Assembly: GCA_016182045.1 (NCBI GenBank)
Contig: JACOYE010000008.1
Coordinates: 502 to 64,501, forward strand
DNA length: 64,000 nt
Reading direction: 5' to 3'
Source: Candidatus Microgenomates bacterium
GTDB lineage: Bacteria; Patescibacteriota; Microgenomatia; Daviesbacterales; UBA10151
Made by a program: the position numbers and the translations under genes. Positions within the stretch are counted from its first letter, which is position 1, and every line of letters begins with the position of its first letter. Below the pieces are notes generated by a model. It was given only the letters and a program-made list of their open reading frames with translations, did not search any database and had not been told where the DNA came from. Below are positions 3,205 through 62,662 of this stretch, piece by piece.

Positions 3205-3284
3205 AGTAATGAAAGATTATACCAATCAAAGGGTTTTAATGCAACAATCCTAGATGTAACCATTCACGAGTTGTCAAAGGAAAT

Positions 3285-3350
3285 GTCATCGCGAGGCTAC
3301 GAAGTAGCCGTGGCGATCTAATAAGATTGCTTCGCTACGCTCGCAATGAC
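3285..3350. repeat. intergenic GC-rich palindromic element (GTCATCGCGAG...CTCGCAATGAC), a member of the repeat family also found inside CDSs
   Basis: Imperfect ~66 bp palindrome with GTCATYSCGAG termini and an internal hairpin GGCTAC-GAA-GTAGCC. It is much more GC-rich than its surroundings. Confidence 0.6.
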
Positions 3351-3388
3351 GAAGTTTTGTTAAATCCTGAACAGCTACTCCTAGATCA

Positions 3389-7623: not shown

Positions 7624-7923
7624 CTAAACATTTGGGGTGAATGGAAGTAAGGCCAGGTGACGAGCATATTTTATCTGTCTTGTCAAAAAACGCTGATGCT
7701 TACTACAAAGCCCGCTTCTGATTTTGGGTAGGATTTTTGCTCTGTCAGTTAAAAACCGGCGTAGGGTCACCACATCAGTAAAGATGGGTATACTCTTTTG
7801 CTGACAAAAATAACACCTTTTTTTCTTGACAGGCAAATCTCCTGTTGGTGGGTTTACTTGGGGAGATTCCTCTGCTTTAGACTCCTTATTGGAAATTTTC
7901 TTTTTTACTACCTTTTTAACCAT
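7624..7923 (-). CDS. rpsR: 30S ribosomal protein S18
   Basis: CYFC...VVTLRRFLTDRAKILP...RHLALLPF matches the S18 consensus. Confidence 0.85.
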   Translation of the reverse strand: MVKKVVKKKISNKESKAEESPQVNPPTGDLPVKKKRCYFCQQKSIPIFTDVVTLRRFLTDRAKILPKIRSGLCSKHQRFLTRQIKYARHLALLPFTPNV

Positions 7924-9696: not shown

Positions 9697-9730
9697 ACTC
9701 CGTTATCTTCTAATTAGAAGATAACGGAGT
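9697..9730 (-). terminator. perfect 15-bp hairpin (ACTCCGTTATCTTCT-AATT-AGAAGATAACGGAGT) overlapping the rpsF stop codon, followed by a T-rich stretch on the minus strand; possible attenuator between rpsF and ssb
   Basis: The inverted repeat is visible in the sequence, and downstream on the minus strand is TTGAAATTTAAAATTTTAAATTTTC. Confidence 0.4.
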
Positions 9731-9984
9731 ACATCTTCCTCTACTTTTAGAAGTTTGTCAAGACCTTTGGCACTTTTAGGCTCAGCATTAATCTCAAAAT
9801 GGGCATAAAAACCCTTGGCTTGTCTTTTGATTGGATATGCCAGATCTCTGATCCCCCAAAGATCTTCTTTTTCTACCTTGCCATCATCACCGGTTAGTTT
9901 TTTTACCACATTATCCACCAATACTTTGCGCTCCTTTTCCTCCAAATCCGGCTTTAAAACTAATGTTAAATAATATGAATTCAT
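9703..9984 (-). CDS. rpsF: 30S ribosomal protein S6
   Basis: MNSYYLTLVLKPDLEEKERKVLVDNVVKKL... fits the S6 fold. Confidence 0.85.
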   Translation of the reverse strand: MNSYYLTLVLKPDLEEKERKVLVDNVVKKLTGDDGKVEKEDLWGIRDLAYPIKRQAKGFYAHFEINAEPKSAKGLDKLLKVEEDVLRYLLIRR

Positions 9985-11074: not shown

Positions 11075-11125
11075 AATGAATTATTATATCAAAACCCATA
11101 GTCGGCATCAATCTACGATAACCCC

Positions 11126-11189: not shown

Positions 11190-11591
11190 ATGAGTATTAT
11201 AGAACGTGGAATAGATACTGTCCCTCTACAACCAAGTCTTGCCGAAGATGTCGCTGAAAAATTTCCCCAGCTTGGTCCAAAAATGACCGGTCCGGCTCAA
11301 TTCATTGAGGGAACTTTAAAGAAAAACGCAATAGAGGCTACATTAGAGGAGAAGTGGGATCTTACATTTTACTTACTTTGGGCCTCCAGAGGAACCGAAG
11401 CAGATGAAAGTATCTTAGAGAAATTTAATATTAATAGGGAAGATTTTACGACTAGATGCAACAGAATTGCAGAGGATGAGCGTTTAGTGCAAATATACGA
11501 TTTGCTTGATAGGTCAATTCCAGCCACAGTGGAACGCGCTCTGCAAAATGTAATTTCTGACAGAGGATATCATCGAAGAAGAAAGCTCTAA
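11190..11591 (+). CDS. hypothetical protein (133 aa)
   Basis: ORF with an upstream consensus promoter. It converges on ychF with a 4-nt overlap. Confidence 0.45.
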   Translation: MSIIERGIDTVPLQPSLAEDVAEKFPQLGPKMTGPAQFIEGTLKKNAIEATLEEKWDLTFYLLWASRGTEADESILEKFNINREDFTTRCNRIAEDERLVQIYDLLDRSIPATVERALQNVISDRGYHRRRKL

Positions 11592-12685
11592 CTACTTACC
11601 AAAAATTCAATTACATCCCCATCTTGGATTACATAATCCTTCCCCTCAGTTCTAATCCAACCTTTAGATTTTGCTTGAGCATAAGATCCAGCCTCAATTA
11701 GTTTTTCATATTCTATAACTTGCGCTCTAATAAAGTTTTTTTCAAAATCAGTATGAATTACTCCAGCTGCTTGGGGAGCTCTTGTTCCAGATTTAATGGT
11801 CCATGCTCTCACCTCTTTTGGTCCAGCTGTTAAAAATGAAGTTAAACCTAAAAGCTGATAAGCTTTTTTAATTAGCCTTTCCAAACCTGTTTCTTCTATT
11901 CCCAGCTCTTTCAAATAATCTATCCTTTCCTGATCGGACAAGTCAATTAATTCCTCTTCCAGCCTAGCTGAAATTACCATCTCATTCTTATAACTACCAC
12001 GATCGTAGAGTTGTGATTTATAGTCTTGTTCTGAAACATTGTAAACATATAAAATTGGTTTTATAGATAAAAGTGGCAAGTGTAAAAACCAACTCCTCAA
12101 TCTTTCATCCCCAATATTATATTGGCCGAGCCCTCTCCCATTTTCTAACTCATCTTTTATTTGTTTAAGTATTGCCAGTTTTTGAGATTCTAAAGGATCT
12201 TTTGATACCCTGGTTTCTTTCTCTTGATATGTACATAGCTTTTCTACGGTTTCTAAATCAGCTAGAGCCAACTCTGTTTCCACAGTTAATTTATCAGCAT
12301 CAGGGTTTTCTGATCCAGCGCGAGCCACAATTTGATCCTCAAAGTCTCTTAAAACATGGATTATGGCATCAACTTCTCTGATGTGGGATAAAAATTGGTT
12401 TCCCAACCCTTCTCCTTTATGGGCTCCTTTAACTAAACCAGCTATATCCACAAATTCCACAATAGCTGGAACTACTGGAGGCGGAGACTCCATTTTCTCC
12501 TCTTTCTGCACCAGCTCTGCAAGTTTTTCCAATCGCTCATCAGGCACTGCCACCACCCCCACATTCGGTTCCACTGTGGCAAATGGATAATTGGCTGAAA
12601 GTGCCACTCTTTTTTTCAAAAGAGCATTAAAAAGTGTACTTTTCCCTACATTTGGTAATCCCACTATCCCAACTCGTAGACTCAT
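11588..12685 (-). CDS. ychF: ribosome-binding ATPase YchF (Obg-family GTPase with a C-terminal TGS domain)
   Basis: P-loop GIVGLPNVGKSTLFNAL followed by the YchF-type region ANYPFATVEPNVGVV. A TATAAT box lies at 12693-12698 on the minus strand upstream. Confidence 0.9.
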   Translation of the reverse strand: MSLRVGIVGLPNVGKSTLFNALLKKRVALSANYPFATVEPNVGVVAVPDERLEKLAELVQKEEKMESPPPVVPAIVEFVDIAGLVKGAHKGEGLGNQFLSHIREVDAIIHVLRDFEDQIVARAGSENPDADKLTVETELALADLETVEKLCTYQEKETRVSKDPLESQKLAILKQIKDELENGRGLGQYNIGDERLRSWFLHLPLLSIKPILYVYNVSEQDYKSQLYDRGSYKNEMVISARLEEELIDLSDQERIDYLKELGIEETGLERLIKKAYQLLGLTSFLTAGPKEVRAWTIKSGTRAPQAAGVIHTDFEKNFIRAQVIEYEKLIEAGSYAQAKSKGWIRTEGKDYVIQDGDVIEFLVSS

Positions 12686-12759
12686 ATCCTATATTATACC
12701 CATCTATGGAAAATAAAACTGAATAGACAATTGAGTTATTTTGTTATAGTTTCGCTAGA

Positions 12760-12917
12760 TTGACAAACTTGGAGATTTGTAGTAAAAAGGCCCTGACGGT
12801 AGCCAGAATATACAATCCGACTACTCGTTTACTTAACTTCATGTAGTTGGTAACCTGACTACCGCCACTAACATGAAGGCAGTGACATTCGGGTGGCGTG
12901 GACGCGCCACCTTTTTT
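12760..12917 (+). ncRNA. candidate small RNA (~120 nt): TTGACA-17-TAAAAA promoter, then a transcript ending in an intrinsic terminator (GGTGGCG-loop-CGCCACC plus T6)
   Basis: TTGACA at 12760-12765 and the -10 box at 12783-12788. The hairpin is at 12892-12911 and T6 at 12912-12917. No plus-strand CDS exists upstream that the terminator could serve. Confidence 0.3.
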
Positions 12918-14535
12918 AAACAGTCTCACCTAACTTATGAATTCCTAAAATCTCCTTCACTTTCCTTATTATAGCTTTTGAGGAAATCTCTTCATAATCC
13001 AAAAGCTCTTGTGGTTTACCGCTTTTGGGCATTTTTTTAACTGCCAGAGAATATATCTTCCTATTTTGATTTGCTAAAGCAGACGCAACTGCCTCTCCTA
13101 TTCCTCCCTCTTGAAAATGATCTTCCACAGTTATTAGAGCTTTTGTCTCATCTTGAGCTTTCTTAAGAGTATACATATCCAGTGGTTTAACCGAATAAAG
13201 ATCAATTACTCTAATTGTTATCCCCATCTTTTTTAACTGATCAAATGCTTGTAATGCTTCATAAACTGTAATCCCAGCTGCCACCACAGTAACCTTATCT
13301 TCCTGAGATTGTTTCAAAATTTTACTTCCACCAATGGGAAATTTTTCATCATTTTTATATAAAAGAGGCATTTCTTTTCGGGTGGTTCTGATATAGACAA
13401 TTCCCTTGTGTTTGGCTGCCTCTTCCACTAATTTTTCTGTTGAGGTAGCATCCGATGGGTATAAAACTACACTTTTCAAAAGTGTCCTGAACATGGCAAT
13501 ATCCTCAAGGCCCATCTGGGATGACCCATCTTCACCAATGGATACTCCGGCATGGGAGCCGACAAATTTAATATTGACTCCGGAATACTGACTCATCCGG
13601 ATTTGATCAAAGGCCCGGGTAAAAAAGGCGGCAAAAGTGGAGACAAAAGGAATCTTGCCCATCTGGGACAAACCGATTGCCACTCCCACCATATTCTGCT
13701 CGGCAATAAACATCTCAAAAAATCTCTCAGGATATGCCTTTTTAAAAATTTCTGAATAAGTGGAATTAGAAACCTCGGCATCTAAAACTACCATGTTAGG
13801 AAACTTGGGGAATATCCTTACCAAAGCATTTCCATAAGCCTTTCTTGTCGCCACCAGATCACCTTGAGCATATTTGACAGAGTCAGTATAATTTTTTGAA
13901 CCGACTCTGTCATCCCGAGCGACTCCGACGTAAGTCGGAGGAGTCGAGGGATCTGGCTCGGCAATTTTTCCACGCAACTTCACATCCATATTTCCCAGCT
14001 CCTTTAAAGCTTTCTCCAACTCCTCAGAATTCAGTGCCTTACCATGCCATCCGTTCCGATCCTCCAAAAAAGATATTCCCTTACCTTTAATTGTTTTGGC
14101 CACAATCACAATTGGTTTATCTTTTACTTTTTGAGCTTTTTTAAAAGCATCCATAATTTCCTTAAAATTGTGACCATTTATCAAAATAGTCTCCCATCCA
14201 AAAGCAGCAATTCTTTTTGAGTAAGCTTTTATATTATGACCATACATGGTCTGGCCTCTTTGGCCTAATCTGTTAACATCCAAAATACCCACCAGATTAT
14301 CCAATTTATAGTGGGCGGCAATTTGAATTGCTTCCCAGACAGCCCCTTCTGCCATTTCACTATCACCTAACAGTACATAGGTTTTGTAACCTGATTTATC
14401 AACGTACTTGGCATTTAATGCCATCCCCATTCCAATAGAAAGACCCTGCCCCAAGGAACCGGTGGCTGCCTCCGTATATGGGAAAAGCATGGTTGGGTGA
14501 CCCTCCAACTTAGAGCCGAATTTTCTTAAAGTCAA
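12916..14535 (-). CDS. tkt: transketolase main body (TPP, Pyr and C-terminal domains); the reading frame has no ATG and continues from the N-terminal fragment in another frame
   Basis: LEGHPT...GSLGQGL...VLLGDSEMAEGAVWEA (TPP-binding) and later a ...SQMGLEDIAMFR-like Pyr domain. An in-frame repeat insert lies at 13905-13958. Confidence 0.8.
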   Translation of the reverse strand: MTLRKFGSKLEGHPTMLFPYTEAATGSLGQGLSIGMGMALNAKYVDKSGYKTYVLLGDSEMAEGAVWEAIQIAAHYKLDNLVGILDVNRLGQRGQTMYGHNIKAYSKRIAAFGWETILINGHNFKEIMDAFKKAQKVKDKPIVIVAKTIKGKGISFLEDRNGWHGKALNSEELEKALKELGNMDVKLRGKIAEPDPSTPPTYVGVARDDRVGSKNYTDSVKYAQGDLVATRKAYGNALVRIFPKFPNMVVLDAEVSNSTYSEIFKKAYPERFFEMFIAEQNMVGVAIGLSQMGKIPFVSTFAAFFTRAFDQIRMSQYSGVNIKFVGSHAGVSIGEDGSSQMGLEDIAMFRTLLKSVVLYPSDATSTEKLVEEAAKHKGIVYIRTTRKEMPLLYKNDEKFPIGGSKILKQSQEDKVTVVAAGITVYEALQAFDQLKKMGITIRVIDLYSVKPLDMYTLKKAQDETKALITVEDHFQEGGIGEAVASALANQNRKIYSLAVKKMPKSGKPQELLDYEEISSKAIIRKVKEILGIHKLGETV

Positions 14536-14758
14536 AAGCTTGCTCTCGCTGATTAGGATTTTTGGGATCTTTTAAATCAAAATGAAAAAATCCACCAAAG
14601 CAAAGAGCTACCATCAAATCAGTTGCAGATAAGGAGGAGGTGGGGTGCCCTGACCCTGCTTGGGTGGTAGATATCAGAATAAAGTAACGAATCAGTTTTG
14701 CTATTTTTTTTAAATCCCCAGCATTCATGACAACAAACTTTACCACATCATTATACAA
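14510..14758 (-). pseudogene. tkt: transketolase N-terminal fragment (82 aa) in a different frame from the main body; apparent frameshift and deletion
   Basis: AGSGHPTSSLSATDLMVAL...NPNQ matches the transketolase N-terminus and ends ...FDFKKIRL*. The expected GH(G/A) histidine segment is absent from both frames. Confidence 0.55.
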
Positions 14759-14786
14759 TTGATCAATTTTGCAATATAATTAATTT

Positions 14787-28849: not shown

Positions 28850-28868
28850 GATTTATTATATAAAATAG

Positions 28869-30182
<1,314 letters not shown>

Positions 30183-62569: not shown

Positions 62570-62662
62570 AAAACAATTTTATATCATTTTACTACTTTTC
62601 AGATTTTAAGATAGATAAATTGACAAATTTCCGCCATAGCGGCATTTTGTCAAAAATTGCTT

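What the first reader, a model, noticed from the sequence alone, without database searches (positions are those of the whole stretch)
12760..12917. Candidate ~120-nt small RNA with consensus promoter and intrinsic terminator, antisense-adjacent to the tkt stop
The 230-bp gap between ychF and tkt (both minus strand) contains a plus-strand TTGACA-17-TAAAAA promoter and, about 110 nt downstream, a strong intrinsic terminator (GGTGGCG-loop-CGCCACC plus T6) oriented for the plus strand only. The T-tract overlaps the tkt stop codon. There is no plus-strand CDS nearby, so a non-coding transcript is the simplest explanation. It does not show the SRP, 6S or tRNA hallmarks I could check by eye.
Basis: seen in the sequence. 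Interest (0 to 1): 0.55.

Follow-up and report, generated by a model that had tools for sequence, protein, structure and literature searches.

The report
Orphan terminator-capped candidate small RNA
A 230-base gap in a groundwater "candidate phyla radiation" bacterium holds the only textbook transcription terminator in 64 kb, facing away from every gene, so a short non-coding RNA probably ends there; nothing like it turns up in any relative and its start signal is weak, so it stays an ordinary, unproven small-RNA candidate.

Summary
The gap is 230 bp (12686-12915) between ychF and tkt, both on the minus strand. On the plus strand there is TTGACA, a 17-nt spacer and TAAAAA (12760-12788). A GC-rich hairpin plus T6 (12891-12917) follows, and its T-tract overlaps the tkt stop codon.

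The terminator is far beyond chance. It is the only one of its quality in the window, against 0.007 expected per shuffled window.

The promoter is weaker than claimed:
- The -10 lacks the final T that this genome's promoters otherwise keep.
- About 7% of shuffled gaps give a promoter-like match this good.
- The -10 is the mirror image of the T-run of a weak minus-strand terminator.

Structure does not settle the strand. The 5' hairpin is much more stable on the minus strand, and only the terminator hairpin is better on the plus strand.

There is no Rfam family, tRNA or tmRNA. No homologue turned up in 165 related loci by BLAST, nhmmer, tblastx or a covariance model. The tkt-ychF gene order is not conserved. 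The organism is Ca. Daviesbacteria (Microgenomates), and its nearest ychF is only 78% identical, so conservation could not be tested fairly.

Verdict: a plausible lineage-specific plus-strand non-coding transcript, unproven and of modest interest.

The parts
12760..12765 (+). -35-like hexamer TTGACA (perfect consensus). Shifted by one base it reads TTGTCA on the minus strand (12766..12761).
   Evidence: TTGACA is 4-fold enriched in intergenic DNA of this window (11 of 41 occurrences against 2.7 expected).
12783..12788 (+). -10-like hexamer TAAAAA, 17 nt after the -35. It matches 4 of 6 and lacks the final T. It is also the reverse complement of the T5 run that follows a weak minus-strand hairpin.
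   Evidence: The -10 boxes near genes in this window are TAnnnT.
12795..12917 (+). Predicted non-coding transcript of about 122 nt, with its start inferred 7-8 nt after the -10 and its end in the T-tract.
   Evidence: Inference. Fold of -40.5 kcal/mol, z -2.95. No Rfam hit.
12796..12829 (.). Hairpin H1. Weak on the plus strand (-5.5 to -7.2 kcal/mol) and strong on the minus strand (-15.1 to -15.5), because its G-U pairs become A-C mismatches on the plus strand.
12830..12885 (.). Hairpin H2, a long imperfect stem of about 16 bp, equally stable on both strands (-17.1 and -15.9 kcal/mol).
12891..12912 (+). Terminator stem-loop H3: 7 Watson-Crick pairs plus 2 G-U pairs and a 4-nt loop on the plus strand (-15.8 kcal/mol); only 7 pairs with a 6-nt loop on the minus strand (-13.4).
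12912..12917 (+). T6 tract directly after the stem. Bases 12916-12917 belong to the tkt stop codon.
12916..12918 (-). tkt stop codon TAA.
12784..12808 (-). Weak terminator-like site on the minus strand: a 7-pair stem with 3 GC pairs (12808..12791, -6.1 kcal/mol), then CC and T5 (12788..12784). It could end a tkt transcript.
12693..12698 (-). Perfect TATAAT ending 7 nt before the ychF start codon. This is the likely ychF promoter, of the short-leader or leaderless type that is common in this window, so ychF does not need the 12760 hexamer.
12744..12842 (-). 32-aa ORF (MKLSKRVVGLYILATVRAFLLQISKFVNLAKL) antisense to the candidate RNA. Considered as a small protein or type I toxin and not supported.

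Best explanation
The gap holds a short plus-strand non-coding transcription unit. RNA polymerase most likely starts at about 12795, from TTGACA-17-TAAAAA. It may instead start at about 12703, by divergent firing of the symmetrical ychF -10 region. Either way it stops at the intrinsic terminator at 12891-12917, giving an RNA of about 122 nt (or about 215 nt).

The RNA lies between two minus-strand genes. It is therefore fully complementary to any tkt transcript that reads on towards ychF. Its likeliest mode of action is as a cis-antisense RNA against that trailer or read-through RNA.

Shown: the terminator, its orientation, its uniqueness in the window, and the absence of a plus-strand coding sequence. 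Inferred: the start site, that the RNA accumulates, and everything about its function.
For: - The terminator is canonical and works on the plus strand only: U6 follows the stem on plus, and no U-run follows it on minus.
- It is the sole element of its quality in 64 kb, with 0.007 expected per shuffled window.
- The hairpin is 2.4 kcal/mol better on the plus strand.
- The nearest plus-strand gene upstream ends 1.3 kb away at 11591 and converges on ychF, so the terminator serves no coding gene.
- A perfect TTGACA with 17-nt spacing sits about 125 nt upstream. TTGACA is 4-fold enriched in intergenic DNA here, and canonical TTGACA-17-TATAAT or TAAAAT promoters exist at 28883 and 11126.
- ychF has its own TATAAT 7 nt before its ATG, so the 12760 hexamer is free for the plus strand.
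- All five sub-threshold Rfam matches are on the plus strand. Four are to terminator-ended bacterial sRNA families.
- No coding signal lies in the gap.
Against: - The -10 TAAAAA lacks the -7 T that gene-proximal -10 boxes in this window keep.
- A match this good arises in 6.7% of shuffled gaps.
- H1, the proposed 5' hairpin, is weak on the plus strand and strong on the minus strand. The whole interval is more stable on the minus strand (-44.8 against -40.5 kcal/mol).
- Folding z-scores of about -2.6 to -3 are matched or beaten by several other gaps in the window.
- No homologue and no analogous terminator were found next to ychF or tkt in 160 related loci.
- There are no expression data.
Confidence: 0.4

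Rival explanations
1. The structured region belongs to the minus strand. It would be the 3' trailer of the tkt transcript, or an RNA processed from it. The trailer would run from the hairpin just after the stop codon, through H2, to the strong minus-strand hairpin H1 and the T5 run. The plus-strand T6 would then be an accident of the A-run that follows the tkt stop codon.
For: - H1 is -15.5 kcal/mol on the minus strand against -7.2 on the plus strand.
- The same 123-nt interval folds to -44.8 on minus against -40.5 on plus; minus-strand z is -2.63.
- A terminator-like site with T5 exists on the minus strand at 12808..12784.
- tkt lies directly upstream, so no extra promoter is needed.
- The only other intergenic perfect hairpin in the window, 9697-9730, is sense-oriented at the end of a gene, rpsF.
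Against: - The minus-strand terminator is poor. The short stem is -6.1 kcal/mol, and the strong H1 stem ends 7 nt before the T5 run.
- H3 has no U-run after it on the minus strand, and it is weaker there.
- This reading leaves the only canonical hairpin-plus-T6 in 64 kb (0.007 expected by chance) unexplained.
- tkt itself looks inactivated.
Confidence: 0.25
2. Plus-strand transcription here is only by-product (divergent or pervasive) initiation from the AT-rich, symmetrical ychF promoter region. The selected element is the terminator alone. It would act as an insulator that stops antisense polymerases from running into tkt. The RNA itself would have no function.
For: - The plus strand carries TATATT and TATTAT at 12690-12697, mirroring the ychF TATAAT.
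- The terminator sits exactly at the tkt stop codon, where an insulator would be placed.
- Neither the sequence nor the structure of the RNA body is conserved.
- H1 is poor on the plus strand.
Against: - No other gene in the window that faces a promoter region has such an insulator.
- tkt appears to be a pseudogene, which weakens selection to protect it.
- The long H2 stem between promoter and terminator is not explained.
Confidence: 0.2
3. The element is a non-functional relic. The hairpin plus T6 would be the leftover terminator of a plus-strand gene lost in a rearrangement, and the promoter-like hexamers would be chance matches.
For: - The neighbourhood is rearranged. tkt-ychF adjacency occurs in none of 160 related loci.
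- A relative about 90% identical in nucleotides breaks gene order at window position 11112.
- tkt carries a deletion of about 22 aa plus a frameshift.
- A promoter-like match is expected by chance in about 7% of such gaps.
Against: - A perfect 7-bp GC stem and an uninterrupted T6 show no decay.
- tblastx finds no trace of a coding gene in the gap.
Confidence: 0.12
4. The gap encodes a small minus-strand protein, either the 61-aa ORF at 12744-12929 or the 32-aa ORF nested within it (12744-12842). It might be a type I toxin, with the plus-strand RNA as its antisense antitoxin.
For: - The 32-aa ORF has a basic N-terminus and a partly hydrophobic body.
- The candidate RNA overlaps its start region, and its AUG lies inside the H2 stem.
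Against: - It has no Shine-Dalgarno sequence and no nearby -10 of the leaderless type.
- The hydrophobic stretch is interrupted by R, Q and K.
- There are no Pfam or NCBIfam matches.
- None of the four gap ORFs looked up (61, 32, 33 and 28 aa) is in the 15-billion-protein collection, although the neighbouring proteins from the same NCBI record are.
- There are no tblastx matches.
- The weak minus-strand terminator lies inside the ORF.
Confidence: 0.03

Closest known systems
Terminator-ended, independently transcribed bacterial sRNA genes in intergenic regions (the class found by 'orphan promoter + orphan terminator' searches in E. coli and Bacillus)
   Same: It lies in an intergenic gap, has a -35 and -10-like pair about 125 nt upstream of a canonical intrinsic terminator, has no ORF, and is about 120 nt long with two body hairpins plus the terminator hairpin.
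   Different: There is no sequence or structure conservation and no expression evidence. The -10 lacks the -7 T, and one body hairpin prefers the other strand. The host is a Patescibacteria (CPR) bacterium; two full-text literature searches listed no paper describing sRNAs in this group.
Cis-antisense RNAs and overlapping convergent 3' ends
   Same: The RNA would be perfectly complementary to whatever the tkt transcript carries downstream of its stop codon. Its terminator abuts the stop codon of the opposing gene.
   Different: The overlap with the tkt coding sequence is only the stop codon. Whether tkt transcripts extend into the gap is unknown, and tkt appears to be disrupted.
Divergent (bidirectional) promoters arising from -10 symmetry (Warman et al. 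2021, recalled from memory, not checked here)
   Same: The ychF TATAAT region reads as TATATT or TATTAT on the other strand, and TTGACAA reads as TTGTCA in reverse, so both directions have plausible signals.
   Different: Here the overlapping elements are the -35 hexamers (start sites about 64 bp apart), not the -10 hexamers. No start-site data exist.
Rfam sRNA71 (RF03534), AniS (RF02274), TarB (RF02538), RsmW (RF02809)
   Same: They share the general shape of a hairpin followed by a GC-rich terminator with a U-run. All four matches are on the plus strand.
   Different: Scores are 10.8-17.8 bits against gathering thresholds of 50-80, with E-values of 1.6-8.4. The matches rest on the terminator alone. 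It is not a member of any of them.

Membership tests
Intrinsic (Rho-independent) terminator | GC-rich stem of at least 5-7 bp with a short loop | tested here: met
   The stem has 7 Watson-Crick pairs (6 G-C) plus 2 G-U pairs, a 4-nt loop and -15.8 kcal/mol.
Intrinsic (Rho-independent) terminator | A run of U directly after the stem, on the transcribed strand only | tested here: met
   T6 at 12912-12917 starts 0-1 nt after the stem on the plus strand. On the minus strand the stem is followed by GAATGTCA.
Intrinsic (Rho-independent) terminator | More than a chance occurrence | tested here: met
   One was observed in the window against a mean of 0.007 per shuffled window; 2 of 300 shuffles had any.
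Intrinsic (Rho-independent) terminator | Transcripts actually end there | not testable with these tools
   This needs Term-seq, 3' RACE or a strand-specific metatranscriptome.
Sigma-70-type promoter | -35 TTGACA and a 17 +/- 1 bp spacer | tested here: met
   TTGACA at 12760-12765 matches 6 of 6, with a 17-nt spacer.
Sigma-70-type promoter | -10 of the form TAnnnT (A at position 2, T at position 6) | tested here: not met
   TAAAAA has A at position 6, so the scan tool did not call it. Where a TATAAT-like -10 was found near a start codon in this window (30 of 62 genes; the search itself required A2 and T6), it reads TATAAT, TAAAAT or TATACT, not TAAAAA.
Sigma-70-type promoter | Mapped transcription start | not testable with these tools
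   This needs dRNA-seq or 5' RACE.
Known RNA families (SRP, 6S, tmRNA, tRNA, RNase P, riboswitches, all of Rfam 15) | Covariance-model score at or above the family's gathering threshold | tested here: not met
   There were no gathering-level hits in the 64 kb. The best sub-threshold hit was 17.8 bits against a threshold of 50. ARAGORN found no tRNA or tmRNA.
Conserved structured non-coding RNA | Homologues in other genomes with compensatory base changes | tested here: inconclusive
   No homologue was found in 165 loci (about 1.1 Mb) by blastn, nhmmer or tblastx, or in the 99 of them (about 0.68 Mb) searched with a single-sequence covariance model. Two exact-match scans of viral contigs also found nothing. 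No relative closer than 78% ychF identity covers the locus, so covariation could not be assessed.
Cis-antisense RNA | An overlapping transcript on the opposite strand | not testable with these tools
   The overlap with the tkt coding sequence is 2-3 nt, within the stop codon. Overlap with a tkt trailer depends on where tkt transcripts end. A weak minus-strand terminator at 12808..12784 would give about 120 nt of overlap.
Type I toxin-antitoxin | A small hydrophobic toxin ORF with translation signals, opposite the RNA | tested here: not met
   The 32-aa ORF has no ribosome-binding site, an interrupted hydrophobic stretch, no family match, and is not recorded as a protein.

The most novel reading that the evidence does not exclude
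This would be an sRNA specific to one Daviesbacteria lineage, possibly among the first sRNA candidates in a Patescibacteria (CPR) genome. Its promoter sits back-to-back with that of ychF. The RNA, or the act of transcribing it, would set the level of YchF. YchF is reported to regulate translation of leaderless mRNAs, and most mRNAs in this genome appear to be leaderless or short-leadered.
Probability: 0.08. Interest if true: 0.5.

Novelty: new member of a known kind. Interest (0 to 1): 0.25.

Why it matters
If the RNA is real, it would show that a reduced CPR genome with almost no intrinsic terminators (one in 64 kb here) still keeps a classical promoter-terminator sRNA unit. It would also give a concrete target for metatranscriptome mapping in an uncultivated lineage. 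Its position next to ychF, in a genome dominated by short-leader promoters, would make a link to control of leaderless translation testable. As it stands it is one unconserved candidate, of a kind that sRNA prediction turns up routinely.

Tried and rejected
- **Rfam.** I ran a gathering-threshold scan of the whole window, two permissive scans of the region, and a gathering-threshold scan of 14 related loci. No family matched.
- **tRNA and tmRNA.** ARAGORN found none.
- **Homologues next to ychF.** In 80 GTDB species genomes there was no similarity, no tkt neighbour and no analogous terminator.
- **Homologues next to tkt.** In 80 metagenome contigs the result was the same.
- **Single-sequence covariance model.** It found only itself in 749 kb.
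- **tblastx of the gap.** It found no coding relic.
- **Exact-pattern scans of viral contigs.** Both found nothing.
- **Closer relatives by protein search.** I used full-length ychF, the ychF N-terminus and the tkt C-terminus. The nearest hits were 78%, 88% (fragments with no contigs) and 69% identical. Contig look-ups for the fragments failed.
- **Logan contigs of the same population.** They stop inside ychF and are 100% identical.
- **The one relative at about 90% nucleotide identity (L165).** It breaks gene order before this locus.
- **Small-protein or type I toxin reading.** There was no support.
- **SRP-like reading.** By eye I saw 'GUUUAC' and 'AAGGCAG' strings reminiscent of 4.5S RNA. 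I rejected this because the covariance model gives no SRP hit even at E <= 10 and the shape is three hairpins, not one.
- **Target prediction.** I tried RNAduplex against the start regions of the window's genes. The energies were inflated by long interior loops, so the result was uninformative and I discarded it.
- **Large ORF-free 'gaps' upstream of ychF in L001, L003, L007 and L011.** In L001, the one I read, this was a script artefact: a 558-aa recombinase-like ORF overlaps the ychF start. The other three were not read individually; none of the four gave an Rfam hit.

Full report
**Where the window comes from.** The ychF product is 100% identical to an NCBI protein of a 'Candidatus Microgenomates bacterium' on a 160-kb contig. 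Neighbouring proteins carry locus tags HYT18_01610 and HYT18_01615. The 80 closest ychF loci among GTDB species genomes are mostly Ca. Daviesbacteria, at 74-77% identity or less. So this is a CPR (Patescibacteria) genome with no close sequenced relative. The next-best ychF among 5.8 billion protein clusters is 78% identical.

**The observation.**
- The gap 12686-12915 (230 bp) lies between ychF (11588-12685, minus) and a transketolase (12916-14535, minus). Both are confirmed by Pfam.
- The plus strand carries TTGACA (12760-12765), a 17-nt spacer and TAAAAA (12783-12788).
- The hairpin GGGUGGCGU-GGAC-GCGCCACCU (12891-12912) is followed at once by T6 (12912-12917).
- The last two T's are part of the tkt stop codon (TAA, 12918..12916).
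- No plus-strand ORF longer than 33 aa lies nearby. The nearest plus-strand gene upstream ends at 11591.

**Is it more than chance?**
- The terminator clearly is.
  - With an energy-based finder it is the only compact intergenic hairpin plus T-run in the 64 kb. The other candidates lie inside genes and are irregular.
  - I then required a perfect stem of at least 7 bp with at least 5 GC, a loop of 3-8 nt, and at least six T's within 1 nt of the stem. One such element exists on both strands together. Only 2 of 300 dinucleotide shuffles of the whole window produced any, a mean of 0.007 (one search gave 0 of 12 with an energy criterion).
  - Only two GC-rich perfect hairpins lie outside genes in the window. 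The other one is at the end of rpsF.
- The promoter is a different matter.
  - TTGACA is 4-fold enriched in intergenic DNA. Textbook promoters exist at 28883 (TTGACA-17-TATAAT) and 11126 (TTGACA-17-TAAAAT), so sigma-70-type signals are used here.
  - But TAAAAA lacks the position-6 T. The tool's scan therefore did not call it.
  - 6.7% of shuffled gaps give a plus-strand match of at least 10 of 12.
  - In this window 30 of 62 genes have a TATAAT match of at least 5 of 6, with A at position 2 and T at position 6, ending 0-20 nt before the start codon. At random positions the figure is 12%. The usual -10 here is thus a good TAnnnT.
  - TAAAAA is also simply the reverse complement of the T5 run after a weak minus-strand hairpin.
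  - TTGACAA reads as TTGTCA on the other strand, where it pairs with CAAAAT at 17 nt.
  - On the positive side, ychF has its own perfect TATAAT 7 nt before its ATG. It does not need the 12760 hexamer.

**Which strand carries the structure?** Both strands of the region fold better than shuffles: z is -2.95 on plus and -2.63 on minus. Other gaps in the window reach -3 to -3.9, so this is not exceptional.

| Element | Plus strand (kcal/mol) | Minus strand (kcal/mol) |
|---|---|---|
| H1 (12794-12831) | -7.2 | -15.5 |
| H2 (12830-12885) | -17.1 | -15.9 |
| H3 (12890-12912) | -15.8 | -13.4 |
| Whole interval 12795-12917 | -40.5 | -44.8 |

(Values.) The terminator favours the plus strand and the 5' hairpin favours the minus strand. 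One coherent picture is a pair of convergent, overlapping ends. A plus-strand RNA would stop at H3 plus U6. A tkt transcript would run through the gap to H1 plus U5. The two would be complementary over about 120 nt.

**What it is not.**
- No Rfam family reaches its threshold in the window.
- Permissive scans give only plus-strand matches of 10.8-17.8 bits, all carried by the terminator: four to terminator-ended sRNA families (sRNA71, AniS, TarB, RsmW) and one to a viral stem-loop.
- There is no tRNA or tmRNA.
- The gap ORFs have no Pfam or NCBIfam match, and none of the four looked up is in the 15-billion-protein collection, which does hold the neighbouring proteins.
- tblastx finds no coding relic.

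**Conservation.**
- 80 ychF loci from species genomes and 80 tkt loci from metagenomes show no similarity to the gap by blastn or nhmmer.
- Only one of the 160 has any tkt-like match near ychF (a 25%-identical, opposite-strand hit in L076).
- None has a consistent terminator upstream of ychF or downstream of tkt.
- A covariance model built from the sequence and its predicted fold finds only itself in 749 kb.
- Two viral scans are empty.
- This is absence of evidence at low power. At 70-78% protein identity, intergenic DNA is not expected to align.
- A relative about 90.6% identical in nucleotides exists in the Logan assembly of SRR22388052. Its only retrievable contig covers rpsF and the 348-aa gene, then continues into a Fic-domain gene instead of the 133-aa gene and ychF.
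- Fragments of the same population from four SRR121133xx/SRR121134xx runs are 100% identical and stop inside ychF.

**Most likely mechanism.** I commit to a plus-strand non-coding transcription unit that ends at H3 plus U6 (confidence 0.4).
- Shown: a canonical, unique, plus-only terminator with no gene to serve, and a perfect -35 at the right distance.
- Inferred: the start at about 12795. An alternative start is about 12703, from the mirror image of the ychF -10 (TATATT and TATTAT at 12690-12697).
- Also inferred: accumulation of the RNA, and a cis-antisense action on tkt read-through RNA.

The rivals are:
- a minus-strand tkt trailer structure, with an accidental T6 on the plus strand (0.25);
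- a terminator that only insulates tkt from by-product divergent transcription (0.2);
- a relic of rearrangement (0.12);
- a small protein or type I toxin (0.03).

**Comparison with known systems.** It works like the classical intergenic, terminator-ended sRNA genes and like cis-antisense RNAs. It is not a member of any curated RNA family. As a sigma-70 promoter it fails the TAnnnT test. As an intrinsic terminator it passes every sequence test.

**Novelty and score.** It is at most a new, lineage-specific member of a known kind. A specialist would not be surprised, and nothing here opens a long-standing question. The host lineage and the ychF link with leaderless mRNAs add mild curiosity. Interest is 0.25.

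Noticed in passing
window 12916-14758 (minus): The transketolase gene is broken. The N-terminal 82-aa piece (14510-14758) is in a different frame from the 539-aa body. About 22 residues that relatives keep (…NDRLIFSKGHASPLFY…) are missing. The protein is not in the 15-billion-sequence collection. It is likely a pseudogene or an assembly error.
   Followed up: partly
whole window; e.g. 28855-28860, 11080-11087, 12693-12698, 14775-14780: 30 of 62 genes have a TATAAT match of at least 5 of 6 ending 0-20 nt (mostly 4-11) before the start codon, against 12% at random positions. Shine-Dalgarno motifs are scarce. Leaderless or very short-leader mRNAs seem to be the rule in this CPR genome. ychF is one of them, and YchF is reported to regulate leaderless-mRNA translation (PMC12641178, citing Landwehr et al. 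2021).
   Followed up: partly
window 9697-9730: A perfect 15-bp hairpin (-22 kcal/mol) overlaps the last codons and the stop of rpsF (9703-9984, minus). A U-rich tail follows it on the minus strand, before the ssb-like gene. It may be a sense terminator or attenuator within the rpsF-ssb cluster.
   Followed up: partly
window 62620-62653: A palindrome, TTGACAAAtttCCGCcataGCGGcaTTTTGTCAA, lies in the 93-bp gap between two minus-strand genes (fold z -3.8). 7 of the 11 intergenic TTGACA sites read TTGACAA. This hints at a regulator binding site rather than, or as well as, a -35 box.
   Followed up: no
window 3235-3384 and 7732-7851: These intergenic stretches fold unusually well (z about -3 on both strands, and -3.9 on the minus strand). 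They have no Rfam match.
   Followed up: no
whole window: There is no tRNA, tmRNA, rRNA or any Rfam family at gathering threshold in 64 kb. Only one canonical intrinsic terminator is present.
   Followed up: yes
L165 (Logan SRR22388052), 1-2247: This contig is from a relative 90.6% identical in nucleotides over rpsF and the 348-aa hypothetical gene. Gene order breaks at window position 11112, where a Fic-domain gene (HPFLDGNGR motif) replaces the 133-aa gene and ychF. It is the best source for a future comparison of the gap.
   Followed up: partly
L001 2440-4116: In one of the closest Daviesbacteria relatives, a 558-aa recombinase-like ORF (judged by eye from its sequence, not tested) overlaps the start of ychF. 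This suggests mobile-element activity next to ychF in this group.
   Followed up: no
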